Assembly: GCA_008632985.1 (NCBI GenBank)
Contig: QPGO01000030.1
Coordinates: 372,001 to 423,754 of the forward strand
Direction: 5' to 3'
Source of the DNA: Psammoneis japonica
Taxonomy: Eukaryota
Length of the DNA: 51,754 nt
Shown here: piece after piece, positions 1 through 46,090 of the stretch
How positions within the stretch are numbered: position 1 is the first letter of the stretch
Layout: each line of letters opens with the position of its first letter
The notes under the pieces: model-generated
Database searches by the model: none
What the model was told of the DNA's origin: nothing
What the model saw: the letters and a program-made list of their open reading frames with translations, nothing else
Program-made: the position numbers and the translations under genes

Positions 1-1575
1 GAGAACTCGAGGGGGCTGGAAAGGATGCTGAGAAAGAACTAGCCGGAGAAGAGGGTCGATCGTGCCGAGTTGCAGCTAGGTTTGTGACTCCACTGTGCGT
101 CGAGTCGCTGAGGGCTCCGTCTGTATGACGGTGCTTAGCAACATATTCCAATGCATCCTGTAGAAGCTTTGGTTCTTTGCCGGCCCACATCGCTGCTGCC
201 TTTTCGGTGCACTCGTATCGGTTGGAATAGAAGAACATGTCGACTAGAGCAATTACCTTATGATGCTTCAGGACACGGAGACAGGCTCGAACCATTTCCA
301 TATCTACATCCGACTGTGTCGATATCCAACGTGCGTGCTTCGCGCCATCAATGTGCAATACAACCCAATTTATGGCTAGGTCCCAATCAAACTGCAGGAC
401 AAGAAATCATTCGTCATGAGAAACACCAAGCAATGATACCAAGCTTCTGAGAATGAGGAACGTACCAGCTGAAAGCAATCTGTTCGCAACAGGACCGGTA
501 CCTAATAATGAAACGAAAGAGAGAAAGACTAAGGTAAGACTTCTTTCATGACATAGTATGAAGGAATAGTGAAGACAATAACGCTCACCTTGTGGTCAGG
601 AACAGGCGAGGCAGGCGGTTTTGGTGGACGAAACAACTTCAGATTAAGTGAGTTGGCTGAATCAAGCAATAGATTGCATTCCTTTCGTTTCGAATTAAGA
701 GAAACAAGAAGGCGTTTCAAAAATCCTTGCAACTTGGGTCGCAGAGTCGGTTCCGTCAGGAACTGCGATTCGACTTCCATGCTACGTAAAGCCACGGCCC
801 ATTTCGACAACAGAGGACGGAAAGGACGGGGATCTTCCTCACGTCTGAGAACAAAGCCCAAGCAGAAAAGGAGAGAATTTCGCTCATACCTTTCGTTGGC
901 TATGGCAGTTGGTCGTGTCAAGATGTGAATTCGATGCGTAGAAAGACAAATCATTTTGCCAGCGAGCTCATTTCCGGTTATCGCGTATTCGCTTGTAGCA
1001 TCAAAAATGGAATGCGAGACGTCGTCAAGCTTTGTCGGAAAGTTCTGGTCACCTCCTACTTCGTGCTCATCGGGAGCTATCTCGCTTGTTGCCGCCACGG
1101 GCTTCTGATCTTGTTGGGTATTCTCACCTACGTTTTCGTGCTGCGCATCCGTTTTCGCGCTCTCCTCCTCCATGATACCCTTGAAGGCTTCGGCAAGGAT
1201 TCCATGTACCTCTTCCGTCGATATATTGATGTCTTGATCCATAAAACGTTCGGGGCTCTGAAAGCAAACTTTCGGGCCGACTACATTATCGAATTCTGCG
1301 TAGAAGCAACAAAACAAAGGACACCGAGAAGGATCGTTAGGTTCGGGTAACGACGGCCGATCTTCGGCTAAGACGCGTTCAACAGCATTGCGAGATGCTT
1401 CCGACATTGAACTCGACCTTCTGTCGACTGTGGCTATACTTTGGAGAAATGGAAGCTCGCTCCTTGAGTTCGTTCGCGACATGGTACGAGATCGCAGGGA
1501 CGATGGAGTCGTCGATGTTTGCAGTGCCCGTGGAGACCCATCTGGCGTTGCTGAGATAGACGGCGCGTCTGGCAT
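1..1575 (-). CDS. NPRL2: GATOR1 subunit NPRL2 / nitrogen permease regulator 2 (3' end runs off window)
   Basis: Exon 1 (1575-589) has FYAEFDNVVGPKVCFQSP and YERNSLLFCLGF. GT-AG introns 588-502 and 465-392 join VPVLL..FQL and FDWDLAINWVVLHIDG...DVDMEMVRACLRVLKHH..LVDMFFYSNRY, which are NPR2 family motifs. Confidence 0.9.
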
Positions 1576-2056
1576 TGTCTGATTTTCTCGTCAAAGTAGC
1601 TGATTCATTACTACGCTGGTTCCAGGCAGGCAGAAGTTGGTTGCAAGAGAAGCAGCTGATTTGAGTTTGGAAGTTCCAAGTATTGGAGGCCCGCAAGTCT
1701 ACATAAATCGGTGGGTTTGGAGGGATTCGTTGATGAGATAGGTGACTCGCAAGTTGGTCGGAGTTGTCTCGTGTTGCTGTCAATCGTAAACAGACTTACC
1801 GCACGGCGCCGCCGAAAACCAAAAACCGACCTGCCGCCGCCACAGCAAGAAAGGACTACAAGTACAGTGCTTTGAGATCAGATCAACATTTACGAAATAA
1901 CAACAACCGCGCAATAGGCCCTAGATAGACACGAGAGCTGCACAGCTTGTGTACTGATATGATCATTGAAACGACGTACTGTAAGCCTCTTGGAGAGGGT
2001 AGGTGTAGTAAGGTAGAGATGAATGAGGCATCTTCATCTTCAATACGTACTGTAAT

Positions 2057-2396
2057 TCAGATTCCTATTATTTGCGTGCGACAGATTCCTATTTGCGTAC
2101 GAAAGGAGGAAATTTCGTACGACAGATTCCTATTTGCGTGCGAAATGAGGCAATTTCGTACGAAGGATTCCTCCGGTGCTACGAAATCGACTCGAAATTG
2201 ACGAAATGTTCCGATTCCGGTATATTTCTTACGTGAGATCCACCACGAAAAATGGAATCTTTCTTTTGAAAATCAGCTTTCGTCGACGTACAAAAAGGAA
2301 TCTTGGTTGAAAGAAAGAATCCTCTAGTCGTGCCAAAAAGGAATCTTGCTTTTCCATTCATTACACCAAGTTATGTGAAAAAGGAATCTTGCTTTG
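2057..2396. repeat. Phased subterminal-type repeat array (AGATTCC copies followed by inverted GGAATCT copies), probable DNA transposon end
   Basis: (A/G)GATTCC at 2059, 2083, 2124, 2165. AAAA(A/T)GGAATCTT with GGAATCT starting at 2254, 2297, 2340, 2383 (exact 43-bp period). Confidence 0.7.
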
Positions 2397-4063
2397 CAGA
2401 CCATCATTCCCCTCGCGATCGCTGTGAGACGGTGCGACGACACACGGCGAGCGAACGGCATGTCGCCCATGACGGAAGCGACATCGCCTTGCCAACACTG
2501 TGAAACAGAAGGTTCTGGCCAGTGCAGGCTAATGAGAGTTGCACTTGAGCATTGTGGCCATGTTCAATGCCTTTGCTGTGTGACAGAACTGGACGCCGCC
2601 TGAGGCGAAAAACTGAGACGCCACAGTCGTGAGTTCATCACTCATCACGGCATCAGATCACAAACGTCTGAATGCATTGTTCCGACTAACTTGTTCCTTT
2701 CAATGGAAAGCACAGCCAGCAGAATGATGCAACAATGTGAGCGAGCTTGTTGAGTCAGTCTTTCCAACTGTGCGGGTTTGATCCCCTCAGCCCGATTCAC
2801 ATGCAACGTGAGTGTGTCCAGATTCAAAAGATTGACAGGCTCCATTGGGGCGAAGCCAGAAAAGTCGTGCCGAACGGTCTGTCAATGGTGGCGAAGTTTT
2901 TTTTGCTGTTCAAAAATCTCGATGCTGAAAACACTTGTCGAAAATCGGCTTTCGTCACTCGCTGGAAAACACCCAGTTCCAGCGAGTGACGAAAGCTGAT
3001 TTTTGACATCGTCCATTGTGAAAGCTCCAGAACAAGAGCAAAGTGTAGAAACAAGGCGTCCCATGAGCAATTTGTGCAGTGTGCAAACCTGCATGATGTT
3101 GCCAAACCCCGGATTGAATGTCAAATTTATGATGTGATCAACGTCCAGACATTGACGTGAAAATCAATTCGAAAAAGGCGAACAGAAAAGTTGTTTCTGC
3201 TTGAACAAATGCCAAATTTTCAACAACAAACATTTGCTTTCCGCTCACTCTGACCGACACAACATGCATTTGACCTTGTCCAGCTCGTCACGAGCTTTCC
3301 ATGACACACGGGTTGTGGGGTCTGCGAGGTCATCCCGAAAAAACTTCTCAACCATTGACAGACTGTCGGTGGGATGACAAGATGAGAGCACACAACTTTG
3401 TCATCTTGCCCAGCTCCCAATCATCCCTCATGCATTGCACCAGCAAACGTCAGCCAAATTGTTCGTTTCCAAACAAATGCCAATTTCAGATGGATCATTG
3501 TGTCCAAACCGTTCATGTTTTGCCAGCATCAAAACATTCTGGAGTGCACCATTGTCTGCACAGGCGATTCATGAATGTGACGGGGAGGAGTGCGGTGCAC
3601 CGAGTTCAAACAAGTTGGCATTGTGTGCCTGTCCGCTGTTTCGTGGTGGGTTGCGCTCTACGAGAGATTAGAAACATGACGAACCTCGGCATGTGGGTTC
3701 TACGTTCTACCGTGCTTCTATGATGTGCAAGTCATGAACGTCCCAGTCTAGAGTCTTTTCGTTTGCCCTCACGATCTTGCTGTCAATCTCGGTTCTACAA
3801 TGTTTCAATCCTGCGAAGAGCAACTTGACATTGACAACAACCGCTTGGAGGGCGCAGCACCTCTTCACGTTTCTGAATTGACACTGCTCCGTAAGTTTCA
3901 CCACTTTTCAAGAGGGCACACCAAATTTCTTCCACCCATGTTGCTCAAATCTCCCTTTGCCACTTGCCCCTTTCAGGACATTTTTCAGTTCAGCAAGTTT
4001 GCTTCTACAATCAGCACAAGAATTGGGCATTTTACAAGCTTGGGTGAGTTTGATTTTCGCACG

Positions 4064-4500
4064 CAGGCCAACTGATTGCAAAGTTTTCTGCAGCAATCAG
4101 ATTGCAGTCAGTCGATTGCATCACTGTGGACAGCAATTGGCCAACTGCAATTGCACAGCGATTGCGCGGTCTGATGAACAGATCAATCGCCCCACCGGCC
4201 AGGCGCACCCCCCGTGCAGGGGCTCTCTCTGCGCAAGAGCGCTCTCTGCGCAAGAGCGCTCTCTGCGCAAGAGCGCTCTCTGCGCAAGAGTGCACTCCGC
4301 GCAGGAGAAATCGAGCAATTTCACTGATTTCAGCTGACAAAAGAGCTTGAATTTCGATTGCAATCGATTGCAACAGTGACTGTGATTGCGACCTCGGCTC
4401 TTTCCCGACAATCAGGTCATTGCAATCGAGTTTGCAATTGCGATTGCAGTCAAAGTGAGGCTGGCTGATTGCAATTGATCCCAGCAATTAGTTGACGCTG
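4064..4500. mobile_element. hAT-like MITE with degenerate TIRs and 8-bp TSD
   Basis: Left end CAG-GCCAACTGATTGC versus reverse complement of right end CAGCGTCAACTAATTGC. Flanks TTCGCACG (4056-4063) and TTTGCACA (4501-4508). Many internal (G)ATTGCAAT(C) motifs. Confidence 0.65.
4225..4290 (+). repeat. 17-bp tandem repeat (CTCTCTGCGCAAGAGCG) x~4 at MITE centre
   Basis: Directly visible tandem copies, each nearly self-complementary. Confidence 0.9.
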
Positions 4501-4583
4501 TTTGCACATGCTTTCATCTCTCTTGCTGTCACCACACATGGACAGTCACAGCAATCTCAACCCCGTCCTCTTTCTTCCAACAG

Positions 4584-5150
4584 AATTGCTGAACATGGAA
4601 GGCAATCTTGTTTCTGGCACTCTGCCGGAAGTGATGAAAGATTTGACAAGCTTGAGCAGGTCGATTATCAGTCTCCCGAAATTTCGTGCACCAATTGATC
4701 ACGTCTGCCCTTGACTGGCATTTGCCTTGTTCGTTCGTTCGTTCGTTTGTTTGTCCGTTCGTTTGTTCCTTGACAACCCAAGAATGCGTCTCGTTTGAAA
4801 GCAACAAGTTGTGTGGTCCCCTTTTTGATTTTGTCATGGAACAGAAGGAAGCAGGTGTTGGAAAAGAACAAGTTCTGCACCATCCTGCATTTGCTCTTTC
4901 CAATGCCCCTGATTCTCATTCAATTTCAATCGAAATCATGGCTGAGAGGACCCACTTCACTGGAACGCTCCCGGCTGATCTGCGCTTGTCGTCAAACTTG
5001 GGTGACGCTCCACTTTGGTTGCAGCTTTGTCAATGGAGTGAGCCTTTCTCATCTGCATGCGTGTGTTTGCCCGTGTCTGCGTCAGCCAAGGTAAACACTG
5101 CTGGAGCAAATCTTGTTGGTGCAGACAATCCCAACTGAAATGGGCCTTGT
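4584..5150 (+). pseudogene. Leucine-rich-repeat gene relic with 72-nt exons
   Basis: Exons 4584-4655 (LLNMEGNLVSGTLPEVMKDLTSL), 4783-4854 (CVSFESNKLCGPLFDFV) and 4930-5001 (EIMAERTHFTGTLPADLRLSSNL) are each 72 nt. A fourth, frameshifted exon has TIPTEMGL. Splice sites are damaged: GC donor at 4656, AA acceptor at 4928-4929. Confidence 0.75.
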
Positions 5151-5755
5151 TTTTGCAACCTGGGTGCGTTTCGATTTACACGCATTGCAGCAGATGGCAG
5201 ACAATGCTTTTTGTTGCCATCCATTGTCATCGGCATCAGTTTTCATCATCAGAGAGAGAATGTTGTGCCCGTTGTCTTGGACCCTCCACAACAGACACCG
5301 TAAAAATTTTCCAGCGATGCAGGCGATGCCATTTAAAGAGTGATGGCGCGAGCAGCAAAGAAGCAAGAGATCCCAGCGGTCCAGACACACAACTTGTTGG
5401 GACTTGGGGAGCACTGGCTTTTTCACATGCGTTCGTGCTCACTCTCTCTCTCTCTGTCCAAGACGTTGCTTGCTCATGACTCTGCCAATTTCGAGATGAC
5501 AATGTTCTCTGTTTAAAGACAGGAACAAAGACATTGTTTTGACGAGAATTCCAAATGACGGGGCAGTGTCGCCAAGAGGAGCAGTTTGCATGACATCGGA
5601 GGGAAAAGAAAAGGGCCACTTCCTGAGCTCACATGCTTCGGGAACACTGCCGTTTCAGTTGGAATCCGCAGCATTTGCGTGGCCTCCAGTGCAATGCACT
5701 CGAGCTGCCGTTTGACCTGCTGTTCTGCGGTTTCAGCGGGAATCCATGGAATCCA

Positions 5756-5882
5756 CGTGGCTTCCAGCACAAAAGAGATTCTGAATTGCTGGAGTGAAAT
5801 GGTCTGCCATTTCAGCAGGAATCTGTGGAAATGACGTGGCTTCCAGCACAAAAGATTTTGAATTGCTGGAGTGAAACGGTCA
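5756..5882 (+). repeat. Local direct duplication (~47-49 bp, ~80-bp offset)
   Basis: CGTGGCTTCCAGCACAAAAGA(GA)TT(C/T)TGAATTGCTGGAGTGAAA(T/C)GGTC occurs at ~5756 and ~5836. Confidence 0.8.
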
Positions 5883-7029
5883 CTGCAAATGTCAGTTGAG
5901 ACAGGAATTCATAGAATCTGGTGCAAGTTCCATGGAAGAAGACTGCTCATGCCCGCAAATTTCCCGTGACTGCTCATTCAGTCTCATCATTCATTGCTCT
6001 CACAATTTGCTCAAGAGACGCACTTCGCCCCATTGCTTCACAGCATTCATGATGCTCACTTTTTTCTCCAAGTTCGCAAACCGCAAAGCTGTGGTTGAAG
6101 ATGGTGCATCTGAAGCGAAGCGCACGATGTGTCCTCACGTCCGCAGCATGGCAAAAACCCTGAAGCTTTCTTTGAAGAAGTTCCTCTGCATGCCGTGAAC
6201 CGAGCAAGTCAAGATGATTTTGGAGTTTGAATCCCTCGCCACTGCGATCGAGAACAAGGTCAACAGCTTGAAGGAGGCAGCTTCGACTCTGCGCGAACAG
6301 GCTCAGAGCAAACCTTAGACTCTGAGCCTGTGCCGCGTGCATGCCACTGTGTGGAGCTGGATCGCATGATCGATGAGCCAGCATGAAAGAAGGCAAGAAG
6401 AGGCTTGCGAACATCCAGCCCAAGATTGCGACATTTCGTGATGTGCTCGAGAAGCAGCAAGAGATTCTCAAGTGTCCTCAGATGACATTGCAGGAGGTTC
6501 GGATTGCTTGGCTGTGACCTCCATGAGGATTGTTCCCTTTCGGAACCCGCTGATCTCTCCAAGACCATGATGACAAAAGAGGAACACCAAGAGTGCATTG
6601 CTCGCATCTTGCTCATCAACATGGAGACACCCTCTTTGAAGTGCAAAGCCTTGGACATGTTGGAGTCAGCTCCGTCGGCTGATGACAAGGGATGATGCAG
6701 AGGAAGGCGCAGATGGCACCCATGAAGGATCTGACCCCCCCCCCCCCCCCCCCCACCAAGAAGGCCAAGATGGAAGGCAACTGGATTCCATGAACAAGGA
6801 GACCAAGGCAGAGTGCATTTTTCATTGGGCAGCATCTGGCAAAGGCAGCAACAGTGCAGCGCATTGTTCTGCAAGAAATCCAGAAAGTGCAACGGCAATC
6901 TTCCACAGCATCAAACAGTTTCACAGGCTCAGCGCATCAGTCCAACTGCATCAGCTCGGCTTGCCTTTGGTGCAGTGGGAAATGAGAGGGACTGACAACT
7001 CGCTGTGAATGGAGTGCACTCATTAAAAA

Positions 7030-8880
7030 GCAAGTGTCATCAGAAAGAAAATGTCAATTCCCACGTCACTGTTGTCATCCAGTTGCGCAAACAGATCTTT
7101 TCTCCAAGGATCAAATTTGGATTGTTTCGGTGCCAAGTGTGCTGGGGCAGGTGCTTTGGAACAATCAGTGACTGTGGTGTTGTGGAAGATGTTGGTGTGG
7201 GGAAATGTGTGGTGGGAGAGGTGCGCAAAGCGCGCTTGGGGATGGAGAGAAAAAGTGTGGGCCCAAAGTGCAGACAGACGGCTGAGGTGAGGAGTTGTCA
7301 GCAAGGGTGCCGGTGGGGTGGTGAAGCAGCTGATCTCGGTGCGAAGAGAGATGGTGGGAGAGAGCACAGCCAAAGTTGAGGCCAAGGATTTGGGAGGCCC
7401 AGAGTTGGGGTGTGGCTGCATGGCAAGATGAGCCAAAACGGTCTGGGGAGAGCAGTTTCCAGGCGTGTTGGAGTGGGTGAGGAGGTCGGAAGGGGCAAGC
7501 AGTGAGTCAGTGAAGGCAGAGAAGGATGCTTGAGAGTTGGAGAAGGAAGATGGGTTTGTCCAGGGTGGCTTGGAGGAAGGGGTGGGACAGAGGCGGATGA
7601 TGAAGAGGAGGAGCTGAAGAAAAAAACGTGAAATGGCATCCAATGCCACCCAGGTGGTCGAATGTGAATGGGAGAAGGAAGAGGCCAGCTTGGTTGATGG
7701 CGTCAATGACATCAGAGCTGGGGGCGGATTGTGCAGAGTGACCAAGAAGCTTGTCCCATGTGCTCTGCTGAGGTGAACCTTGTTTGATGGGTTTTCAGGG
7801 ATGGGTGAGCCAGGTGCAGGAAGCAGGGGAGCTGGTGGTGCGGTGACATCAATGGCCAAGAAGTGATGAGCAGATTGGGCGTTGGGTGGTGTGGAGCCAG
7901 GAGCAAGTTGTGCGCCGACGTCGGCGGGGCATTTGAGGGGGTGGTCAACTGGGAGACCGGCTGGTTCAAGGTGCACTTGTTGACAGGAGAGGCACAGGCC
8001 GCAAAGGTGGCCTGGAGTGTCAATGACAGTGCAGATGGTGTCATGGATGTGGTTGGACAGCGGCTTTTGTGCATTTTGGAGCATGCGAAGGCGTGATCTC
8101 TGAAGGGGTCAGGGCGGGTGTGGCCATGTGTGGACAGTCATGTTGGAGTGGAGCGGCAGAGATTGTTGGGAGGCGCAGCTTGCGGAGGAGAAGGAGTGCA
8201 AAAATGTGTGAATGGAGTCAGTTGGAGATGGAGGATTGGGAGAGAGAGTGCAGGCAAAGGCTTGTTGGAGGGGATGGAAGGGATGGAAGGGCTGGTTGTG
8301 TGGAAGGATCAGCCAGGATCAGAGGAAGGGTGTTGGTTTTGTGGTGATGTGGATGAAGGCATTGCACGAGACCGTGCAGGTTGTGGTGTTCAATGGCATG
8401 CTTGAGGGAGGCAAAGGAGGAAGAGTCGAAACGGAGGAGAATGGGGGTGCAGTGACGGAAGATGCGGCAGAGGGAGAGGGTGGAGCGCGGGTTAGACCAT
8501 GAGCCAAGAGCAGCAGAACGGCTTGGAGGGAGATGAAAGATGTCGCCACCGGTGAGTGGGATGCCATGCTTGGTGTAGCGCATTGATCTTGTGAGCAAAG
8601 CAACAAGAGCTGGGATGGCGACAGCGGAGATGTCGCGACATCTGACACCACCCAAAGAAACGGGTGGGTTGGCAATGAGTTTGGCGGCTGAAGGGAAGGG
8701 GGCGGAGTGTTGAGTAAGGTGGGCAAGGAAACGCAAGGAATGGCGGATGATTTTGTCAACAAAAGGTGATGCCCATTGGAAAGGAGGGGTTGAGAAGTCG
8801 TTGGAGTGCATGAGGTTGAAACATGCATCAGCCGCGAGAAGGTGGTGTTGCCGGAGGAGCCGCCGCCGCGCTTGCGAATC
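7030..8880 (-). mobile_element. 5'-truncated, decayed non-LTR retrotransposon of the restriction-like-endonuclease group (CRE/R2-like)
   Basis: Minus-strand fragments occur in canonical order: post-RT PVSLGGVRCRD..AIPA, knuckle CPH...DPFRDHAFAC, SNHIHD (HNxxRD-like), VHLEP, CPADV (RPAD-like), LAIDVT, LLPFTFDHLGGIG. Multiple frameshifts. Ends approximate. Confidence 0.75.
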
Positions 8881-9207
8881 TTGAATCATCTCCCGTGTGG
8901 CCTGTCAGTCGTTACCGCGCCGCACATGCGAAATCAGATGAGGACTCGTGTGCCCAACAGTACCTTTCTTTCTTATTTATCTTCTCCTCGCTCATTCGCA
9001 TCCGCTCATCCTCATCTACTTTTGAGTTTTAAGCCACAGCATTTGGTTGCTAAGAGAGAGTGCCTACGACTTAAATTTTGCAGCTAAGACCTTTTTGGGT
9101 AGAGGCCACTCCCAGCTTGGGAGGTCTGTAACAAAAGTACCGTGCGGGTAAGTTCCATTGAAACATCGGGGGTCCTCTCTGGGGAACGTGCTAGTTTGAC
9201 ATTATGT

Positions 9208-12200
9208 CTACCTGGTACAACTACTCTCAAGCAAACGTCGCTCGTTGCTTTCTTGGGATCCTTGTTGGCGAAAGGGCTGGCCGTGTCGGACTCGCTTCAA
9301 TATATCTCCAGCTACCAAGCAGTAGTCTTGATGAGATGAAACCAAATCAGAAACGTCAACATTTTCCACTCCATCGATATCAACTGGACAAGTGCCACAG
9401 ACAGGTTTGAATCCGCCAGATAATCGCTTAAACTTGAACATAAGAGAAAGCACCAAGTCTTTACGAGAATAGCAATTGACAAGTCGCCCTGCAACAACCC
9501 GTCGGCAGGCAGCCCAGGATGACAGACTCAAGTGATTTGGCATTCCCATCAGAATGACGTCTTCTACAATACTCGCCGGTTCCCTCATGAGTTCTATCAG
9601 TTCGTCGTTGGCGGCCCTCTTCTTCATTCCTGTTCGACCGTCTTCTCCCAAAGCCCTGTTTTGGCGTAACTCCTCCCAGTGTTCTTGATATCTTGCAAGT
9701 TCTTTCAAACAAGTATAGATTGTGCGTGCGCCCATTGAAAATCCTACCAGAACTACGGGACGATAACCGGCACGACTGAGAAGCAGAGAACGGGCCAACT
9801 CTTTGCCGGCTTCCTCCGAGCGCTCAATAGCTAGCGTCCATGTGCCATCGATCATATTTGCTGCATTGACCAGCACATACGGCAATGCCAACGACGAGAG
9901 AAGCGTCGAGAGAGCAGTCTGCTTCAAGACATGTGCCGTAGCGCCTCCCATCATATCTAGCGCTAAATCCTCGACTGAATCACTCAGTTCCAACAGGAGT
10001 TTACTCTCCCACTTTACTGTATATTGTTCTCCTCCGAAATTCGCTTGATAATCCCATACAGTAGCGATGTGCTTTGGAATTGTACGCTCTTTGTCATCTT
10101 GATCTTCCGTCGCTAGCATTGCTGAAGAATCCACAGATATCGTGCTGCTGTCTAACCCCGACGAGACGTGAGACCCGTGTTCCGAGGCAGACGACGTACC
10201 GTCTACACGAAATTTGCGAAAAGAGTCAGAGAGTGGAGTTCTTATACGCTGGCTACCGACCACCGAGTTCTGGGGAGTTGCGTGCTGAGATGACAAGCCT
10301 TCGCCGCGCTGACTGCGTCTCATAATCTTCTGTCTCCATCCTGACTTCGATTTCTCACCGGGAGTCATTTCCTCATCGCCGCGACCTCGAGCCGAAGAAT
10401 CCCTTTCCTTCTTCGGGGACAAGGACACATCCGAATCACGCTCCTGAGTGGAAAATCCAAGCTCATAAAGAATGTTTCCAACGATTTCGGTTTGTTCGAG
10501 TGTCAACGCCGCCCTGTGTCTCGGACCGTCGTCGAGAGGAAACAAGTGGGAAGGATCGCTACCATAGGTCTCCCTTAGATATTGCCAAAGCTCCCGTTCC
10601 TGACCTTTCCATCTCTTCAATATCGTCGGGGCTCTAGTAATGTACTCCGGCTTATGAATGGCATAGAAACGCTCGAGTAGTTCTTGTAGGTCTTTCACAC
10701 GTGGATTGCTCGGGGTCACACCCCAAGGTCTCTGGAAGTCGCAAGCATCCCTGAGCCACCCAGAAAGACAGATTGTACTAAAAAGCTCCGCTTCTATCTT
10801 TTTCTTGACTGGACGGCCGCCAATGTCACGTTTATTACCACTTTCTTTTTGAAATTCAAACTCCGTCAATCCTTGTGTGCGTCGTTGCATTTTGTATGCA
10901 GCGAGCCCTCCACCACCAACGCCGAATATCGCGGTGATTGCCGCACTACTAGTCAGTGTCACGACAGCGGCGGTGGCGGCCGAAGAGCCTGCGACAGCTG
11001 CCACTCCGGCCGCAATTCCCGGAGCCGCGAGCCCTCCCGTTACGGCAAACAACGTGCCGGCAACGAGACCAGCAGAACCAATCTTCAGACCTCTCACTAT
11101 CTGATCTCGGGATACCCCCTTCTTTCGTGTACTACCTCGTTCCTGCGAACTGTGTGGGTTTGCTTCTCGTCTATTTGATCGACCCTCTGACGAAAGATGG
11201 AGAAGCTTCCAGGCAATGATATGTTCTAGGGATTCAAACTTGCGCGTTGCTGCGCTTTCAAATTCAATGTTGGTAAAGGAAGCAGTCCCTCCATCCTTGT
11301 CCCCCGGTAAATCACAAGCATCACGTTTCATTTCTTGAACCAACACAATTACACCTAACTTTTTGAAAACATGGCGAACCCTAGCGTCGTATCCCACTGC
11401 GCTATGAAGTAACTGTTGCAAAAGCAAGAGCGCAAGACACCTGAAGCCAGACCCCGGGGAAAGAGACTCCAAGAACGGTTGAAGCGACTGGTCGCTATCA
11501 AGCTCCATTGTCTTGGGATTTGTATCGCCAAAGTCTCGATTCGAAATTTCAGAATGCATTGTTGAATCTGTCGCAACTGACGGAGACGGCAAAAACTCGC
11601 ATTCCAAATCGTTTGAACGCGCGGTCGACGATGCGGTAGCATGAGACGAAGCGTAGAAATCACTATGTATTTCGTTCATTCCTTCGTTTCCTGGTGAAGC
11701 AGGCATTGACTGGGCGCGTTGTGGTGATGTCTGTTGACGAGATTGTGGTCGTCTTTCGCGTTGTTGGGGGTTGTATGACGGGGCTTTTCGTCGGGAAGGA
11801 TTCGGCAACAAGAGACGATCAAGCATTGGAAGGAACGCCCGCGCATGGCTCTTCTCCAGCAAGAGAAGTTCAGCAGCTGAGAGAAGCAAGTCCGAAAAAA
11901 TCTGATAGCGCCGCAGTCGATGTCGACTTTGAGCCAAATCAGTTGCTTCATCATTCTTGTTTCGTCGACGGCCTGAGTTTCTATCGGTTTGTTTGTTAGA
12001 ATCCCTAGAGCTCGATCCTTTCTCCATACCGCCAGACGATCTACTCTGTGAGAAATTTCTCTGAAATTTTCGTGCTGATGCCGGGACTCGGCTAGGTCTT
12101 TTCGTTTCATCTGAAATTCCACTCTCGCCGTGAGCTGATGTCTGCGGTGTACGATCGGGGCTACTGTTCGTGCTGGAACGCGATATCGATTGTCTCAGGT

Positions 12201-12708
12201 CAAGCTTTTCCTCGTCGTCCGACATATTTCCATCATCACTATCGTCGTAATAAGCAAACGAGTCAGTCATTGTAAGCGTAGCCGAATCTTCATCGTTGTC
12301 ACGAGAATAGTCATAATCATAGGAGGAAGCCAGTACAGCTGCAAGACATCCCTGTCGAATCGCGCATGAAAAAAAAGGAAGTTTGAACGGTCTGTCAAGC
12401 AACATACCTGGTACCAGCAGCATTTCTCAACTTACAATAAATCGCTTTCGATCCTGCTCTCCCGGTAGCGCAGGCAATGTTTCGGTGAGCAACGATTCAA
12501 GGCGGGGTGACGCAGGAGTTGCTTTTGAACTGTCTTCATCGTCGTCCGACACTGCGGAACTTGGGGTGTCTAGCAACGACTTGGCGGCCGATTGAACCAG
12601 CGAGGCAGTGTATGTCCTTGAAACAGGAGTCTCGATAGATTGCGAGGAGCTTTCGACGTTGTTCTTACTAAGCGGATGATCGACAACACCTCGAACCATT
12701 GGTGACAT
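9208..12708 (-). CDS. TMCO4 / DUF726 family protein (alpha/beta-hydrolase-like)
   Basis: Motifs GYDARVRHV, AVTGGLAAP hydrophobic segment, GGGGLAAYKMQRRTQGLTEFEF, PVVLVGFSMGARTIY (GxSxG) and RRVVAGRLVNCYSRKDLVL. Intron 12435-12352 joins DRKRFI|GCLAAVLASSY. The true start may be 12776/12782 if a 1-nt error lies near 12712. Confidence 0.85.
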
Positions 12709-22841: not shown

Positions 22842-23434
22842 TCTATGTAATATCGTGTTAAAGTTGAGTTTATGTGTTGTCCTTGACGCTTCTACTTGAC
22901 TGAAGAGCCATTCCGCAATCTACTTTGCGCCACGTAGCGTTCCGTATTACTTGTACGTTGGTATGACTCACTTTCGACTTCGTCGTCAGTGTTGGAGTGA
23001 GTCGAATGATCCGTATATCTTCCTGTCATGGTTTTATTGTCCTATCAGTGATCATCTTATGCTTGTTTCCTTCTAATGTAAACGCGTTCAACGGCGGAAT
23101 CGTCGCGAACAATCACCATGGTGCCCTCACCGACAGCGAACGGCGACGGCCGCCCGCCCCGTACCTTCAGTACCAGATCCTACGTATGACTGACGCAACC
23201 CCGACTCGCTGATCCATCTGTCTGTCTGTCGCTCGGCACATGCACGTTTCACCACTCGGCCTGTCCGCCACACCAACGTGCGTTGCCGGGTTGCCGCCCA
23301 GCCACATCCGTCCGCACACCGCACACCCCACACTGAACACGCCGAGCTTTGTTAGAGATTGCTGTGATATGGATCGAACATGTTAGCATGTTGGATCTTA
23401 TTGGACGGCTCTTTTCTTCAATCAGTGGGAAACG

Positions 23435-29300: not shown

Positions 29301-30127
29301 TGAATCCAAGGTCGACGAATTTCCCAAACCTCGAGGAGTTGTCGTTGCGAAGAGTCCGTGCATTCCCAAAGGCTTCGAGGATAGGATTCGACTGCAAGAC
29401 TCGATCCATGATGCTCGGCTCGTCTTTTACCTCGCTTGTTCCGGACGAGCCGAGAGCAGTAAGGTACTGGACAACGTATTTTGTCGACTCGGTCTTGCCG
29501 GCTCCACTTTCACCCGAAATCAAAATAGACTGCGACCTTCTCTCTCTATTCGTCATTTGATGGAATGCCTTGTCGGCGACAGCGAAGACGTGAGGTGCTA
29601 GTCTCGTTTCGTCGGCGTCCTTCGACATGGACAGTTGCAAGCCGTTGGAGCGGTAGCTGTCCAGTATATCCTGTAGGAATCGACAAGACAATTTGAGAGA
29701 ATCGCAATGACAAAGAGCAATGTTTTCCACTTGCGATTCTACGTACGTTTGAGTATGCCGGAATATGCTTGAACGGATTTACCGCGATCAACACGGCGCC
29801 GGTCCACGTGTAGATCTTGTCCTCGTGAAATCTCTGCGAGATTGAGTGGAGGATGGCGGGCTCGTTTAGATACGGCAACATTGTCAGATCCTCGTTCGAA
29901 CCGCCGCTCGCTTTGTCCGGCATTCCGTCGTTGGCGAGTTGAACGCCGCGGTACTTTGTCTCGTTGGTTCCACGAGGCGAATCTTGGGCGGGACAGGAAA
30001 TCGTCACGTCGGGTCTGTCCACCGGCTGAACGCAGAGTTCTTCGTCCGTTCGCGATGTAACGATAGCCAAGATCCATGCCTCATCACTGTCGGTGTCGCA
30101 GTACCAAACACTCGCACCGACTTGCAT
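26323..30127 (-). CDS. Myosin heavy chain (N-terminal SH3-like region, motor, IQ motifs, short coiled-coil tail)
   Basis: Motifs DLTMLPYLNEPAIL, GESGAGKTES, LEAFGNARTLRNDNSSRFGK, DIFGFE and PHYIRCLKPN, then IQ motifs. Introns 29746-29671 and 27463-27369. Last exon and stop are approximate. Confidence 0.92.
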
Positions 30128-30624
30128 GGTTTGGCGGGCAAATGGAAAAATGTGATGAACGATAAACGCGCTTGGTTTCTGGAGCCGGTCAACGCAGCTA
30201 TCCAATGCTGTATAACAAGATAAGACAACGCGTCGACGGTTGCGATATGGGAACGGAGGTGAGCAGTTTGTTTCAATAGAAGGTCGTCGTCGACGGTCTC
30301 GAGTCTGGCGGCGGCACTCGGCGTTGAAATTGTGTCGTCGCGGGGATCGAGCGCAAATCCAAAAATGGGAAAGCATTCTTAACGTGATTATTTGTACTAA
30401 GATTACGTATGTAGAAACTTGTAGAAAGATCCCTATTGTACAAAACATGCTGACTCTACGACAACTGGCATTGGAAACGCGCCTTTCCTCGCGCGCGGGG
30501 AGGGAAGCTTGTGGAAGCTCCGTGCGTGAAGGGACAAAAAAATGGCGGCGGGGTCGTGAGATGAGTGAGGTTTGAACGCATTGAGCACCTTAGTTTGAGC
30601 GACTAGTTGGTGAGGTTTTCGAAC

Positions 30625-41823: not shown

Positions 41824-41859
41824 TTGCTGGTCTCTCGTCGCGAGGAGTCGCGATAGTAC

Positions 41860-44800
41860 CATGTTGTTTGGTGGTTTGGGGTCGCTGCTCGCTGCTCGCT
41901 CGCGCGTTGCGCGCAGGATGGGGCGGGTCTGCCATTCTTCCAGAGCCCCGTGGTTCTTGTCACGAGATGTCGGCATGTGGGAAGAATGAAAGAGGTGGCC
42001 GCCGGAGGCGGCCCAGAAGAATAAACTGAAAAGGAGAAAGGAAAAGAGAGAGAGGAAAAGAAAGGAAAAAGGAGAAAAACAAGAGAAGACGTTGTGGGGC
42101 TGTCAACTTGCGGCCCTTGGCTAGGCTTCTGCCCGCAAAGCAGCTTGTCTGTGACTTGAGGTGCTGCGGTTTTACACGCTTGGCAGCAAAGCTCCCACAG
42201 CATGCTGGAGAACTGCAGAGTTGTGCCAGTCTTTGGCACAGCTTGACAGCGGCATCTTTTGTGAGGAGCGCTTGCTGCCAGCCCATCATGGCTTTTTGGG
42301 CAGCTTGTTTTCCAAGCCTTGCCCCACCAGCTTGGTGGCCACTGCCGCGGATCTGTGTCTTCTTTGTTCTCCAAAATTCAGTGCACACTTTGGCGGGTTT
42401 GGCCCCAGCGCTGTGTCCAAACAATTCTCTGAAGTTTCCAAGTGAGAAAACGCAGTGTCGTCCTCTTTAAAAGATCTTCACAAAGATCCCTGGCAACAAG
42501 CACTGGCCTTCCCCACCCATGCTGTCAGAAGTGCCTGCCTTGACAAATTCACAGCATCTCTCCCAAAGCATCTGTGGATGCTGTGCCCAAATTTTGGCCT
42601 CATGCGTCACAAAATCTTGAGAGAATTTGCGAGATTCACCCCATCACGTGCCGCCACCTTTGGATTTCCAGTGCAGCCATGGCTTCTGCAGCAGGCTGTT
42701 AACAAACATGCAAGCAAGTTCCCACTGGGACCTCAAATTGACCTGCAGCCTTCTTCATTCCGGCTGCACCCCTGCTTGAATTCTGGGTGGCCAGCTGAGC
42801 AAAACCTGGCTCTGTCTGTGTTTCTCAGTTCATGTTTCTGGCTTTGTCACATGCGGTGCAAAGTGCCCTCAGGAAAATGCTTGTGGTTGTGCTTGCCCAA
42901 TGCTGTCCCATCAGCCAGTGCCTTGTGGCGCAGCCCAATGCTTTGCTTGCCAGCTCTCCACTGCAAGCTCCTTGTGGCTGGTCTGGTGTCTTCAAGAAGC
43001 AAACCACACCCCATTTTTGCCCAAAGAGGGGGGGAAATCAGACCGATGCACATGCCTGAAAGACACCCTGTGTCATCAGGAGGTTCCACGATGAAAACGA
43101 GTGAGACGAATGAACAACACCACATCAGCTGCAACGTGTAAAGTGGGAGCGAGATTTTGCGAGCGGTTTTCTGTTGTCTTGGTTGTTGCGAGTGTTGCGC
43201 GAAGCCTTGTTGATGTCGAATCTATGCCACAACATGCTGACTTTGTACGCCACAAAACTTCAAAAATTTGTTGCTTTTGCACTGGGTCTACGCCACTGGG
43301 CGCATGTAGAATCTTATATAAAAATCACGTACGCCACTGTGGTACAAAATTTGTGTACACCCTGAACCATTCTACGCCACTAGTGACGTAGGCTCTGGTG
43401 TGTTTTTTACACTTCTGACTTGAATTTTTCCGTGTCGTGCAAGGGTTCCTTTCGGGAGGAGCCTGCGACACATCTGGCAACGAAAAAAGCAGACCATCAG
43501 AAGTCCCCATCTCCAGTGCTGGTGTGACCCTGTAGATTGGCTGCGGCGATGGGACCGACATTTATTTCAGGAGCATGGGTGGCATCACAGGGCGGGGCTC
43601 TGTGAGACGGTGAAGAGCCCTGGCCTGTGAAATTTTTTTGTCAGTGCAGCCTTGAAGAGTGGCCGTGCATGGCAGCAACATGAGCTGGATGTTTTGGGGG
43701 AGCACATCTCACCAGCCCCACCCAGCATGCAGAAAACAGCAGCTGCCAGCCTGCAACTGTGTGACAGCAGCTTTGATGCCACACCCACAGAAGTTGTGGT
43801 TGTTGGATTGCTCTGTGACAGCTCTGGAATGGCTTGCGAGCACTGGCTGTTTTTGGCCAGTGGCTCTGTGAAGCAAGTGCTCCCCCCCACCCTGCTGGCC
43901 AATGGTGGTTGGTGTGCTCTGTGGTCTGTGGCAGCTCTGCACTCTCCACCATGAGTCTCCTCTGATTGCATGCTTTCTGTCTCTCTGCAGAGAGGCTCCT
44001 CTTGTGGAATTTGGGCACACAGCACACACAACAAGAAAAAAAAACAACACATGACAACTCATCATCTCATCACAATCCTGTTGACACCAGCACAGCTTTG
44101 TTGCAGCACCGTCCAGCTGCCATTGTCAAATTTGACGCACAAGCTTGGTGCACCATTGGAGCAGAGAAAATTGTGGCTGCAGTCTTGCTCACAATTTTGT
44201 TGTCCAAGATTGACAACAAAGAGCCAGCACAAAATCTTGTCACTTTTTTGGGTGGCACTGATGATGTGCACTGTTGTGCTGCTGCCATCTCTGCTCCCAT
44301 CTGCTGCACCTTGCAAGCAATGTTGTGGAAGAATGTGCAAGCATCTTTTTGTTGCACCCCAGTGATGGCATTGCTGTTGTTTTTTTGTGGTGAAGGGATT
44401 GTTTTGGTCATTTTTGTGCTCACGACTCAGGTGCATGTGAGCTTGCTGGGGGCTCGCCTGACATTGTTCACATGGAAACAGTGCTCCTGTGGTGACAACA
44501 AAATGAGAAGCACCTTTGATGGTGCCAGTGGCATGATTTGTGCTGTTGATCATTGTGACAGCACCATCACTGCACAAATGACCTGGTGCTGAGGGTTTCA
44601 GCAAAAAACCTGCTGCCCAACATCTGCTGCTTTCAACCAACCCCAGTCTGGAGCACCACACAGCCTGCATGCAACCCGGCTGGCACAACATCTGCTGTGA
44701 TTCCACGACAGCCTCTTCAGCAGACAGAGAAGGCAAGCAAAGCAGAAAATTGTTGCACAATGGCTTGCAGTGGCAGAAAGCAGGTGGGCCCCACTTCACC

Positions 44801-45745
44801 AGCTTTGTTTTGTGGTGCACACAGCCAGCCAGGGGGGGATGCCAAATTGCATCTCACAACATGACAAAGTGCAAAATGCAAAAGACAACTGCCACACTTC
44901 TGCCACCTGCCATGCTGTGGACATGCACCAAAAGAAACACTGACAACTTGCCAACCACTTTCCACTTCAGTTCATTGCTTCTTCTTTTTCTTTGCTCCTC
45001 ACATCAGCCCCCCACCTCTCCAGGAGGACCTCTCCAGGACAAGGCTCTTCCTCTGCCCCCCCCTTCTCAGTGGCACATGCTTGTGACATGCAGACACAAC
45101 ACTGTGTGCCTTCATGAAAAGGGAGATGCTGAAGGGCACTTGTGTGGGTTCAAACCCCAGGCTTCTGTGTTTGTTTTGGTGTGTCCAGCTCCACTGCACC
45201 TGTCTGGCTTCTTGTGCATGGGTGCATTGACTGGTCTGTGACATTTCATTCTGTGCATTGAGCACACCTTGGCTCAGCAAAACAAAGGTGTGCATCCATC
45301 ATTGGCCTTGTTGCTGATGCTGAGGACTGGGTGGAGTTGCTGCTGTCAGCATTGCTGCCAGCTTGTCTGCTGGGTGTGTTGGCATTGTCAGACTTTTTCC
45401 AGCAAAACAAATGGCAGCCATCCAAAGTGCACCCCCAACACTGTCTCCCACACCTCTGACATGGCAGTCAACCCTTGCAAGAGTGTTGCGACAATGACGG
45501 GAAAGAAATGACTCGAGAGCAGAGACCACCAATCACTCTGGAAAACAGCAAGTCAAGGTGGGAGCCAAACAGGACACACAGGACAAAGAGCAAGGAAGTG
45601 TGCTGTGACATGTTTGTCAAGGAACAGAGAACCCACTCCATCTTCTCATGGATGAAAAAGGCTGAAAAGGGGCTCAATCTGAAGAAAACTCACAAGGACA
45701 TCAAAGTTCACCACCCAGCAAGTTTTTGCTCTTCAATGACGATGT
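41860..45745. other. TpA- and CpG-depleted hypermutated block 2 (unidentified decayed elements)
   Basis: No TA seen in 43565-45744, and CG is very rare there. TG/CA-rich. Tyr-free Cys/His-rich ORFs in all frames. Confidence 0.9.
43223..43398. repeat. TACGCCAC subterminal-type array ending in a near-palindrome; probable DNA transposon end
   Basis: TA(C/T)GCCAC at 43223, 43246, 43289, 43330, 43373. The last copy forms TACGCCAC-TA-GTGACGTA followed by GGCTCTGG. Confidence 0.65.
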
Positions 45746-46090
45746 AATCCATTTTGCGCCAATGGGCCAATCCTCTTCTTGTTGAAATGGCCCATGGTGA
45801 CACAACACAACAATGCTGACTGATCCACATTTTTCTTCCCCCATGCCCCATTTCGCCTTTCCGTGTTCTTGCTTGGTTATTCCAGATTTTGAAGGACCGA
45901 AATGTGCACACACACACGCACACATACACACACAGACAACGAAACATGCGCAAAGCCAAGAGAAGAGACGAGAAGAGGTGCAATGCTGTAATCTGTAATC
46001 TAACCTTACCGTTTCGCAAAGACCGATACGCAATCCATTTTTTACCTTTTTACCTACACCTTCTTGATTGACTTTCCAGGTCAACATAAA

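What the first reader, a model, noticed from the sequence alone, without database searches (positions are those of the whole stretch)
2375..8910. TpA-erased repeat domain: candidate 'reverse-RIP' (A-to-G at TpA) genome-defence system
Seen: TA is common in all flanking genes and intergenic DNA but nearly absent here, with none over ~1.47 kb (7026-8492), while TG/CA are abundant. The block consists of TE relics and a multigene-family pseudogene. CpG partly survives in the left half, so 5mC deamination alone cannot explain the pattern; it also cannot remove TA. Known: fungal RIP does the opposite (CpA to TpA). TpA-preferring A-to-G change is the signature of TadA-type adenine deaminases and of polymerase-eta WA hotspots in somatic hypermutation. 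Inference: a region- or repeat-targeted process converts TpA to TpG on either strand (read as TG or CA). I do not know of a described mechanism for this in diatoms but cannot search the literature.
Basis: partly seen in the sequence, partly recalled or inferred. Interest (0 to 1): 0.95.

Follow-up and report, generated by a model that had tools for sequence, protein, structure and literature searches.

The report
TA-erased transposon graveyards in a diatom
Two gene-free blocks of dead transposons in a diatom genome have had nearly every TA dinucleotide rewritten to TG or CA, the footprint of a targeted mutation process so far reported only in a 2026 preprint on an unrelated alga.

Summary
Block 2375-8910 has 27 TA where about 260 are expected (obs/exp 0.07; the rest of the window is 0.61). 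A second block, 42040-45900, is stronger still and lacks CG as well.

In every block the gain in TG+CA equals the loss of TA+CG. AA, AT and AG are unchanged.

The blocks are transposon relics: a 5'-truncated non-LTR retroelement at 7135-8845 (minus strand), a MITE-like insert, and dispersed repeats.

Three results argue against intrinsic composition:
- Other copies in the same sample carry TA where this copy has TG/CA: 12 rows against 1 the other way.
- Eight environmental relatives of the retroelement have normal TA.
- A tyrosine conserved in intact relatives is His or Cys in tyrosine-free copies.

Neighbouring genes have diatom best hits.

The best reading is in-place, block-confined TpA-to-TpG/CpA hypermutation plus ordinary CpG decay. 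This is the process measured in Bigelowiella natans (bioRxiv 10.64898/2026.01.13.699255). My searches found no report of it in diatoms, so it is a new member of a just-described kind. The enzyme and the targeting are inferred.

The parts
2375..8910 (.). Block 1: TA-erased, TG/CA-enriched mosaic of transposon relics between two host genes
   Evidence: TA 27 (obs/exp 0.07), CG 0.62, TG 1.47, CA 1.58. Loss of TA+CG is 382 against a gain of TG+CA of 366. 706 contigs of run X1 at 80% likeness or more lie on window 1-12000, 286 of them under 90% alike.
7135..8845 (-). 5'-truncated non-LTR (LINE-type) retrotransposon relic with frameshifts and TGA stops
   Evidence: tblastn of RT-bearing homologues (for example P0245 residues 603-1119 of 1145) maps collinearly to 8844-7273. 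7 of 12 homologues scanned carry RVT_1 just N-terminal of the matched part. The family profile's best solved matches are R2 (E 3.3e-6) and LINE-1 ORF2p. Other contigs join 7134 directly to 8846, skipping 1711 bases.
2834..3396 (.). MITE-like nested insert with terminal inverted repeats
   Evidence: Inverted arms 2874-2902 and 3338-3366, 29 nt, 90% complementary. One contig joins 2833 to 3397, skipping 563 bases.
3659..3796 (.). Cluster of 7 surviving TA, 6 of them in the word TCTA
   Evidence: One search lists the contexts. Over all blocks, 26 of 37 surviving TA lie in T[CT]TA on one strand, against 386 of 1646 outside (Fisher p = 3.6e-9).
6001..7134 (.). TA-free stretch on which little other than the locus itself lies in the run
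   Evidence: Summed word depth 70-111 against 57-62 in the flanking genes. Contigs 5955-6719 (11 differences) and 6806-7372 (1 difference). TA obs/exp 0.0-0.04.
42040..43230 (.). Block 2a: TA-erased, CpG half decayed
   Evidence: TA 6 (0.09), CG 0.40, TG 1.66, CA 1.48. Loss 84 against gain 75.
43231..43440 (.). Unmutated island inside block 2, with normal TA and CG
   Evidence: 13 TA (0.77), CG 0.94. The word TACGCCAC recurs at about 42-base spacing (read).
43441..45900 (.). Block 2b: TA and CpG both erased, the most advanced state
   Evidence: TA 4 (0.03), CG 0.15, TG 1.92, CA 1.81. TA-free run 43563-45745. Loss 225 against gain 246.
9208..12426 (-). Flanking host gene (DUF726 / TMCO4-like), normal composition. 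It marks the right edge of block 1 and gives the lineage.
   Evidence: Pfam DUF726, E 1.9e-77. Every organism-named hit among the best 120 is a diatom.
529..1590 (-). Flanking host gene (NPR2-like), normal composition
   Evidence: Pfam NPR2, E 8.5e-18. TA obs/exp 0.52-0.64.

Best explanation
The two blocks are intergenic graveyards of transposable elements in a diatom nuclear genome. A mutation process acted on them where they lie. It changes the dinucleotide TpA, and only TpA, to TpG or CpA (an A-to-G transition read from either strand) and has run almost to completion. Ordinary decay of methylated CpG to TpG/CpA goes on in parallel but more slowly, so the blocks form an age series:
- TA gone, CG largely kept (block 1, left part).
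- CG half gone (block 1 right part, block 2a).
- CG gone (block 2b).

Shown here: the composition, the mass balance, the sharp confinement, the transposon nature of the targets, and the direction of change.

Inferred: this is the same kind of process as the TpA-only hypermutation measured in mutation-accumulation lines of Bigelowiella natans. The most likely chemistry is deamination of adenine to hypoxanthine in DNA by a TadA/ADAT2-like deaminase. My odds for that step alone are about 0.4. From recall, its natural tRNA substrate is A34 preceded by U33, which would explain the need for a 5' T.

Also inferred: the enzyme is recruited by the silent chromatin, the methylation or small RNAs of transposon blocks, not by sequence duplication as such, and the effect is permanent inactivation of the elements.
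For: 1. Size and specificity. TA obs/exp is 0.03-0.09 in the three blocks against 0.61 outside, and TG and CA are 1.5-1.9 against 1.07. AA (1.20 against 1.15), AT (0.91 against 0.90) and AG (1.07 against 1.03) are unchanged. Binomial log10 P is -77.6, -13.6 and -36.7.
2. Mass balance against the window's own background. TA+CG lost against TG+CA gained is 382/366, 84/75 and 225/246.
3. Both strands. TG against CA is 427/452 in 2375-6999 and 291/283 in 43441-45900.
4. Targets are mobile elements: a non-LTR relic, a TIR-bounded insert, and hundreds of diverged contigs of the same sample lying on the block.
5. Direction, DNA level. One search showed 40 of about 1000 difference rows. 38 lie in the block and 26 of these are transitions: 12 'here TG/CA, other copy TA', 6 'here TG/CA, other copy CG', 1 'here TA', 2 'here CG', 5 other. 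Whole-table totals for X1 were G>A 234, C>T 182, A>G 178, T>C 129, and transversions 256.
6. Direction, protein level. In the motif RSLRYATHG of intact RT-bearing relatives, the Tyr is H or C in three Tyr-poor homologues (P0241, P0265, P0267). Pair counts of the relic ORF against 22 intact-like homologues are Y>H 18, Y>C 18, Y>Y 15, and the reverse 1. Among intact-like ones the counts are Y>Y 518, Y>H 199, Y>C 28. The relic ORF has 1 Tyr in 228 residues.
7. Not intrinsic to the element lineage. Eight environmental relatives have TA 0.51-0.85 and CG 0.55-1.03.
8. Not triggered by duplication alone. Tandem arrays in the same window (2 x 182 bases at 98%, 2.8 x 257 at 88%, 3 x 153 at 98%) keep TA at 0.52-1.01. 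Only 3 of 25 differences between their units are TA<->TG/CA.
9. Precedent. In B. natans, 230 of the 231 mutations in two hypermutable regions were A>G or T>C, and the authors state that these fall on TpA. The same paper reports 124 TpA-poor/CpA+TpG-rich clusters and TpA-poor CDS enriched in RT and DDE domains (Results read in full).
Against: - No de novo event is seen here. Everything is inferred from a finished state.
- The DNA-level polarity sample is small: 38 of about 1000 rows, the 'best supported' ones, clustered at 2591-2819 and 3526-3692. These rows come from few contigs and are not independent.
- The protein-level test on the relic itself is modest. At 13 sites where 2 or more of 8 intact homologues have Tyr, the relic has C 3, H 1, Y 1, F 3, L 2, I 1, T 1, V 1. 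Identity is only about 27%.
- The environmental relatives are distant, 32-38% identical to P0245. They are not the same family in the same genome.
- Runs X1 and X2 may be the very data the assembly was made from, so they are not independent confirmation of the base calls.
- No whole genome is held. I could not test how general the pattern is, whether young active copies are spared, or whether a deaminase candidate exists.
- Stretches next to block 1 (1601-2374) also show raised summed depth (155-242) but keep normal TA, so what defines a target is unclear.
Confidence: 0.75

Rival explanations
1. The process and targets are the same, but the chemistry differs. The thymine of TpA is modified (for example oxidised to 5-hydroxymethyluracil by a TET/JBP-type enzyme) and then mispaired or misrepaired, giving T-to-C. 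Adenine is not deaminated.
For: TA>CA on one strand cannot be told from TA>TG on the other, so the composition fits equally well. From recall, not tested here: dinoflagellates replace thymine by 5-hydroxymethyluracil preferentially in TpA and TpC.
Against: No sign of TpC loss: TC obs/exp is 1.13 in block 1 against 1.17 outside. From recall, 5hmU:A pairs are not strongly mutagenic. Nothing in the window speaks to base modification.
Confidence: 0.1
2. Intrinsic or foreign composition: the sequences arrived already TA-free, as is typical of their element families or of a donor genome.
For: Some public homologues of the retroelement protein are also Tyr-free (P0265 0 of 264, P0267 0 of 320). High His content (4-6%) is a trait of the whole family.
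Against: Several unrelated pieces share the state: a non-LTR relic, a TIR element, low-depth DNA and block 2. The mass balance matches the host background. Other copies in the same sample carry TA at the homologous places. Eight relatives have normal TA. Intact homologues have 3-3.7% Tyr.
Confidence: 0.04
3. Artefact: systematic miscalling or mis-polishing of modified bases in heterochromatin during sequencing or assembly.
For: A 20-base poly-C run at 6735-6754 hints at a long-read assembly. The blocks are probably methylated, since CpG has decayed. The runs found may be the assembly's own data.
Against: Logan contigs of run X1 (word depth about 57-62, longest contig 315 kb, so accurate reads) reproduce 6806-7372 with 1 difference in 567 and 8656-12000 with 2. 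The same Tyr>His/Cys pattern stands in independently predicted public proteins. A miscall would not give the exact TA+CG to TG+CA balance with untouched AA and AT.
Confidence: 0.04
4. Editing of RNA before integration: ADAR-like A-to-I editing of retroelement transcripts, fixed by reverse transcription.
For: The clearest identified piece is a retroelement. One public homologue shows a one-sided pattern (P0241: Y>H 49 against Y>C 1), as expected if only one strand was hit.
Against: The change is on both strands of the blocks (TG about equal to CA). It also covers a TIR-type DNA element and DNA between the elements. AA is not depleted, although, from recall, ADARs accept A as well as U at the 5' side and are not known outside animals.
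Confidence: 0.03

Closest known systems
TpA-specific hypermutation of integrated viral DNA in the chlorarachniophyte Bigelowiella natans (Mettrop et al., bioRxiv 10.64898/2026.01.13.699255; abstract, Results and Discussion read)
   Same: Only TpA is hit, and the outcome is TpG or CpA depending on the strand. It is confined to discrete regions beside normally evolving genes. The long-term footprint is TpA-poor, CpA+TpG-rich clusters enriched in reverse-transcriptase and transposase relics and in unannotatable sequence.
   Different: - Host: a diatom (Stramenopila), not a rhizarian. The paper's main text has 0 occurrences of 'diatom', 'stramenopile' or 'CpG'.
- Degree: here the erasure is nearly complete (obs/exp 0.03-0.09). 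The NCLDV region there has Rho 0.45 and the cluster cut-off is 0.43.
- Targets: transposon relics here, not an identified giant virus or virophage.
- CpG decay accompanies it here.
- Surviving TA here show a wider context bias, T[CT]TA.
- No de novo events were observed here.
- The preprint's supplementary tables (cluster list, mutation contexts) could not be seen.
Repeat-induced point mutation (RIP) of ascomycete fungi
   Same: A mutational, irreversible inactivation of mobile DNA that leaves a dinucleotide footprint in blocks with sharp edges.
   Different: - Opposite direction. RIP makes TpA from CpA. Here TpA/ApT is 0.076 and (CpA+TpG)/(ApC+GpT) is 1.79, against 0.675 and 1.16 outside.
- Adenine or thymine is changed, not cytosine.
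- Local duplications of 182-257 bases at 88-98% identity are untouched.
Decay of methylated CpG in silenced transposons (5mC deamination); diatom transposons are CpG-methylated through DNMT5a (PMC9998398, passages read)
   Same: It explains the CG to TG/CA part: CG obs/exp is 0.15-0.70 in the blocks against 1.05 outside.
   Different: It cannot remove TA. TA loss is complete even where CpG is dense (14 CG and 0 TA in 2400-2499).
TadA/ADAT2-type adenine deaminases (tRNA A34 deaminases; evolved TadA in adenine base editors)
   Same: A-to-G outcome with a 5' T/U requirement. The 5' preference and the tRNA context are recalled. The B. natans authors name an ADAT2 homologue as their candidate.
   Different: No enzyme was identified here. 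Natural DNA activity of such enzymes is claimed only for a few cases cited in that preprint.

Membership tests
TpA-targeted hypermutation (B. natans type) | Change restricted to TpA, giving TpG or CpA | tested here: met
   TA 0.03-0.09 with AA, AT and AG unchanged. TA+CG loss equals TG+CA gain. 12 of 26 shown transitions are TG/CA here against TA elsewhere, 1 the reverse.
TpA-targeted hypermutation (B. natans type) | Confined to discrete regions next to normally evolving DNA | tested here: met
   All 11 TA-free gaps over 250 bases lie in the two blocks. Edges are resolved within about 100-200 bases.
TpA-targeted hypermutation (B. natans type) | Targets are invading or mobile DNA | tested here: met
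   Non-LTR relic, TIR insert, many diverged copies in the run. The content of block 2 is unidentified: no Pfam match at E 0.001 or better, and only two weak sub-cut-off matches, in the 87 ORFs scanned from both blocks, 35 of them from block 2.
TpA-targeted hypermutation (B. natans type) | Both strands affected | tested here: met
   TG/CA 427/452 and 291/283. Relic Y>H 18 and Y>C 18 pairs.
TpA-targeted hypermutation (B. natans type) | Elevated de novo rate seen in mutation-accumulation lines | not testable with these tools
   Only three runs of one sample were found, and no whole genome is held.
Fungal RIP | C-to-T at CpA, raising TpA | tested here: not met
   TpA/ApT is 0.076 and 0.035. (CpA+TpG)/(ApC+GpT) is 1.79 and 1.95.
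Fungal RIP | Triggered by sequence duplication | tested here: not met
   Tandem duplications in the window keep TA at 0.52-1.01. RIP length thresholds may not be reached by the shorter ones.
ADAR-type hyperediting | 5' neighbour U or A accepted; acts on RNA, so a single strand of an integrated copy is changed | tested here: not met
   AA is not depleted (1.20 against 1.15), and both strands are changed. The ADAR neighbour preference is recalled and also quoted in the preprint's Discussion.
Polymerase-eta WA hotspot mutagenesis | A-to-G at both AA and TA | tested here: not met
AA obs/exp is 1.20-1.54 in the blocks against 1.15 outside.
Non-LTR (LINE-type) retrotransposon (for 7135-8845) | Homology to the ORF of RT-bearing elements, collinear, 5'-truncated | tested here: met
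   30 hits at E 0.001 or better, best 6.8e-16. RVT_1 in 7 of 12 scanned. Collinear with residues 603-1119 of 1145. The profile hits R2 and LINE-1 ORF2p. No RT domain remains in the window copy.

The most novel reading that the evidence does not exclude
A DNA-level, TpA-specific editing defence against mobile DNA is shared by diatoms and chlorarachniophytes, and so may be ancient within the SAR supergroup. It erases TA from silenced transposon blocks faster than methyl-CpG decays. It has its own extended sequence preference (T[CT]TA escapes). It can hit one strand or both in different episodes: public homologues show Y>H 49:1 in one copy and Y>C 2:1 in others.
Probability: 0.35. Interest if true: 0.88.

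Novelty: new member of a known kind. Interest (0 to 1): 0.7.

Why it matters
Mutational genome defences are well established in only a few lineages, such as RIP in fungi and APOBEC in animals. A TpA-to-TpG/CpA process was first reported in 2026, in one rhizarian alga, on two viral inserts.

The same footprint, run to saturation on transposon relics in a diatom, would mean the system is not a curiosity of one species. It would be a second, adenine- or thymine-directed class of editing defence in a group of major ecological importance.

It would also have practical consequences:
- TA-free blocks lack two of the three stop codons and all Tyr codons. They produce long spurious ORFs and hide transposons from annotation: no Pfam match at E 0.001 or better in 87 block ORFs here.
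- TA obs/exp could serve as a simple genome-wide detector and clock for silenced DNA.
- The enzyme, if it is a natural DNA adenine deaminase with TpA preference, would interest base-editing work.

Tried and rejected
- Whole-genome scan: no genome is held for this window, so genome-wide TA profiles, family consensus sequences and a deaminase search were impossible.
- Protein content of the blocks:
  - Pfam on 16 and then 87 block ORFs gave no match at E 0.001 or better, only a few weak sub-cut-off ones.
  - The word-indexed homology search with ORF 7026-8108(-) found nothing.
  - The exhaustive search with 8221-8904(-) did find the family.
- Rfam and tRNA scans of the window found nothing.
- Self-BLAST of the window found no copy of block sequence elsewhere in the window.
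- RNA evidence: no RNA holder was listed among the runs, so nothing can be said about expression.
- Run X3 gave no laid contigs.
- Earlier notes of this scan: six look-ups gave nothing on this genome and only unrelated phage and mitochondrial findings.
- PDB search with single protein P0245 gave no hit.
- Readings rejected:
  - GC-biased gene conversion: it would also deplete AA, TT and AT, which are unchanged.
  - Polymerase-eta WA hotspots and ADAR: AA is unchanged.
  - Selection against UpA in RNA: it gives the mild 0.6 seen everywhere, not 0.03.
  - UV TA photoproducts (recalled): these would not be confined to blocks.
- Literature: seven searches were answered.
  - No paper holds TpA, TpG, CpA and diatom together.
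  - In the passages found for my six search terms, the diatom mutation-accumulation paper PMC6604790 reports no TpA effect.
  - Of the 25 papers listed (108 held TpA, TpG, CpA and transposable elements), 23 concern fungal RIP or fungal genomes, one concerns virus-host motif usage, and one is the B. natans preprint.

Full report
**Observation**

A sliding-window count shows TA obs/exp falling from 0.5-0.8 in the flanks to 0.0-0.25 across 2251-8750, with TG+CA at 1.4-1.7 times expectation.

Exact counts:
- Block 2375-8910: 27 TA in 6536 bases (obs/exp 0.07), CG 0.62, TG 1.47, CA 1.58.
- Remaining 41357 bases of the window: TA 0.61, CG 1.05, TG 1.07, CA 1.07.

At the flank frequency 260 TA are expected, and binomial log10 P is -77.6.

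- 42040-43230: TA 0.09, CG 0.40.
- 43441-45900: TA 0.03, CG 0.15, TG 1.92, CA 1.81, with a 2182-base TA-free run.
- Between them, a 210-base island (43231-43440) with normal TA (0.77) and CG (0.94).

Edges are sharp, within 100-200 bases.

**What kind of change**

AA, AT and AG are the same inside and outside the blocks (1.20/1.15, 0.91/0.90, 1.07/1.03). The loss is therefore specific to TpA and, more variably, CpG.

Against the window's own background frequencies, the dinucleotides lost (TA+CG) equal those gained (TG+CA): 382 against 366, 84 against 75, and 225 against 246 in the three blocks. This fits conversion of TA and CG into TG/CA. It does not fit a different base composition.

TG and CA are about equal where base composition is balanced (427/452 and 291/283), so both strands were hit.

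The RIP indices are inverted: TpA/ApT is 0.076 and (CpA+TpG)/(ApC+GpT) is 1.79, against 0.675 and 1.16 outside.

TA is erased in every block while CpG ranges from 0.70 to 0.15. TA loss is therefore the faster process, or an independent one. The stretch 2400-2499 has 14 CG and no TA.

**What the blocks are**

With TA gone only TGA stops remain, so long ORFs appear in all frames. Of the 87 block ORFs of 70 residues or more, none matched Pfam at E 0.001 or better; two had weak matches below the curated cut-off.

An exhaustive HMMER search with ORF 8221-8904(-) found 30 proteins at E 0.001 or better, the best at 6.8e-16. Of 12 scanned, 7 carry an RVT_1 reverse-transcriptase domain just N-terminal of the matched part.

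tblastn maps residues 603-1119 of the 1145-residue homologue P0245 collinearly onto 8844-7273, minus strand. The three-frame translation of that strand shows in-frame TGA stops and family motifs lying in different frames. A profile of the family hits R2 (E 3.3e-6) and LINE-1 ORF2p in the PDB.

So 7135-8845 is a 5'-truncated non-LTR retrotransposon relic, not a host multigene-family pseudogene. Contigs of a public run join 7134 directly to 8846, which means the relic sits inside another repeated element.

A second nested element is bounded by 29-nt inverted repeats at 2874-2902 and 3338-3366, and one contig lacks it (2833 joined to 3397).

**Reads**

Three runs of one sample hold the stretch. 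At 80% likeness or more, 706 contigs of X1 lie on window 1-12000: 108 at 99% or more, 115 at 95-99%, 197 at 90-95%, and 286 below 90%.

Summed word depth is 57-62 over the flanking genes and up to 1709 inside the block. The tool warns that this sum is not a copy number. It shows only that many diverged relatives exist.

Stretch 6001-7200 has summed depth of only 70-111 and is TA-free all the same. Contigs reproduce 6806-7372 with 1 difference in 567 and 8656-12000 with 2.

Contigs up to 315 kb imply accurate reads, which argues against a base-calling artefact. The run may however be the assembly's own data.

**Direction of change**

DNA level:
- The tool showed 40 of about 1000 difference rows. 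I dropped the 2 that lie outside the block (380, 1754).
- Of the 38 remaining rows, 12 are transversions and 26 are transitions.
- The 26 transitions break down as: 12 'TG/CA here, TA in other copies', 6 'TG/CA here, CG in other copies', 1 'TA here', 2 'CG here', 5 other.
- The rows cluster in two short stretches and are not independent.

Protein level:
- The relic ORF has 1 Tyr in 228 residues, against 2.4% in the homologue segments.
- In the conserved motif RSLRYATHG the relic keeps Tyr, encoded by one of its few surviving TA.
- Three Tyr-poor public homologues have His or Cys at that position (P0241 H, P0265 C, P0267 C).
- Pair counts of the relic against 22 intact-like homologues: Y>H 18, Y>C 18, Y>Y 15, reverse 1. 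Among intact-like ones: Y>Y 518, Y>H 199, Y>C 28.
- A stricter site count is only modestly supportive. At 13 sites where 2 or more of 8 intact homologues have Tyr, the relic has C 3, H 1, Y 1, F 3, L 2, I 1, T 1, V 1.

Relatives: eight environmental relatives of the element, 32-38% identical to P0245, have normal TA (0.51-0.85) and CG (0.55-1.03). The element lineage is not intrinsically TA-free.

**Targeting**

Tandem duplications in the same window keep normal TA (0.52-1.01): 2 x 182 bases at 98%, 2.8 x 257 bases at 88%, and 3 x 153 bases at 98%. Only 3 of 25 differences between their units are TA<->TG/CA.

Duplication alone is therefore not the trigger, unlike RIP. The unit affected looks like a whole transposon block, including DNA between recognisable elements.

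**Extended context**

Of 37 surviving TA, 26 lie in T[CT]TA on one strand, against 386 of 1646 outside (Fisher p = 3.6e-9). Survival relative to background is 3% for ATA, 7% for GTA, 11% for CTA and 18% for TTA.

This pattern was noticed after looking, so it needs a genome-wide test.

**Lineage**

Genes in the window are long uninterrupted ORFs.
- DUF726 ORF: every organism-named hit among the best 120 is a diatom (Seminavis, Amphora, Nitzschia, Cylindrotheca, Mayamaea, Chaetoceros, Cyclotella-type, Thalassiosira) at 40-47% identity over most of the length. The best hit, unnamed, is 63% identical.
- Myosin ORF: the two organism-named hits are diatoms.

The window is therefore from a diatom, not from Bigelowiella.

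**Comparison with what is known**

A 2026 preprint (10.64898/2026.01.13.699255) was read for its abstract, all Results and its Discussion. Its supplements were not available. It reports mutation-accumulation lines of the chlorarachniophyte Bigelowiella natans:
- 231 of 302 nuclear mutations fall in an integrated giant-virus region and a virophage region.
- All but one of these are A>G or T>C, and the authors state that these fall on TpA. The rate is about 6e-7 per site per generation.
- The genome holds 124 clusters of TpA-poor, CpA+TpG-rich windows, and TpA-poor CDS are enriched in RT and DDE domains.
- The authors propose an ADAT2-like DNA adenine deaminase.

Its text never mentions diatoms, stramenopiles or CpG.

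My other searches found nothing comparable for diatoms. In the passages found for my search terms, the diatom mutation-accumulation study PMC6604790 reports CG, CC and TG as the mutable contexts and no TpA effect. Diatom transposons are CpG-methylated through DNMT5a (PMC9998398, passages), which accounts for the CpG part.

**Mechanism**

Shown: TpA-specific, two-strand, block-confined conversion to TG/CA in mobile-element relics, with CpG decay in parallel.

Inferred:
- It is the same kind of process as in B. natans.
- The chemistry is adenine deamination by a TadA/ADAT2-like enzyme. The U33-A34 logic is recalled. My odds for this step are about 0.4.
- Recruitment is by silent chromatin, methylation or small RNA.

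Rejected:
- Polymerase-eta WA hotspots, ADAR-type editing and GC-biased conversion, because AA and AT are untouched.
- RNA-level editing before integration, because both strands and non-retroelement DNA are affected.
- RIP, because the direction is opposite.

**Verdict**

This is no longer without precedent, but in a diatom it appears to be unreported. Here it is seen in its end state, with CpG decay as an internal clock and a possible extended context. I file it as a new member of a just-described kind, with high but not top interest.

Noticed in passing
window 43231-43440: An unmutated island inside block 2: 13 TA, CG obs/exp 0.94. The word TACGCCAC recurs four times at about 42-base spacing. 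It is either a later insertion or a protected element. No Rfam or tRNA hit.
   Followed up: partly
window 3659-3796 and all blocks: Surviving TA are strongly enriched in T[CT]TA: 26 of 37 against 23.5% outside (p = 3.6e-9). ATA is the most thoroughly erased context, at 3% of background.
   Followed up: partly
proteins P0241, P0265, P0267, P0269 (public homologues of the relic): These are Tyr-free or nearly so (0 of 264, 0 of 320, 0.8%, 0.7%), with opposite strand biases: P0241 has Y>H 49 against Y>C 1, while P0265 and P0267 have Y>C 30-34 against Y>H 15-16. Other hypermutated copies therefore exist in public data, and single episodes may hit one strand. Their source could not be looked up.
   Followed up: partly
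window 1601-2374: A stretch just left of block 1 with raised summed contig depth (155-242 against about 60), including 41-base tandem units at 2069-2187. It keeps normal TA (0.69) and high CG (1.22), so it is repeated but not targeted.
   Followed up: partly
window 41461-41824, 49484-50241, 50871-51328: Tandem arrays (2 x 182 bases at 98%, 2.8 x 257 at 88%, 3 x 153 at 98%) with normal dinucleotide composition. The last two lie near the right end of the window.
   Followed up: partly
window 47745-49481: A GC-rich 578-residue ORF with internal 99/114-base repeats has the lowest TA obs/exp outside the blocks (0.17-0.25), but normal CG and TG/CA. This looks like coding-sequence composition rather than the same process. 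No Pfam match.
   Followed up: no
window 6735-6754: A run of 20 C inside the TA-free block. Contigs of the run seem cut there, so its length may be uncertain.
   Followed up: no
window 27460-30589 and 23387-26166: The myosin gene and the TH1-domain gene each appear as two overlapping ORFs in different frames. This suggests a short intron or a frameshift in each.
   Followed up: no
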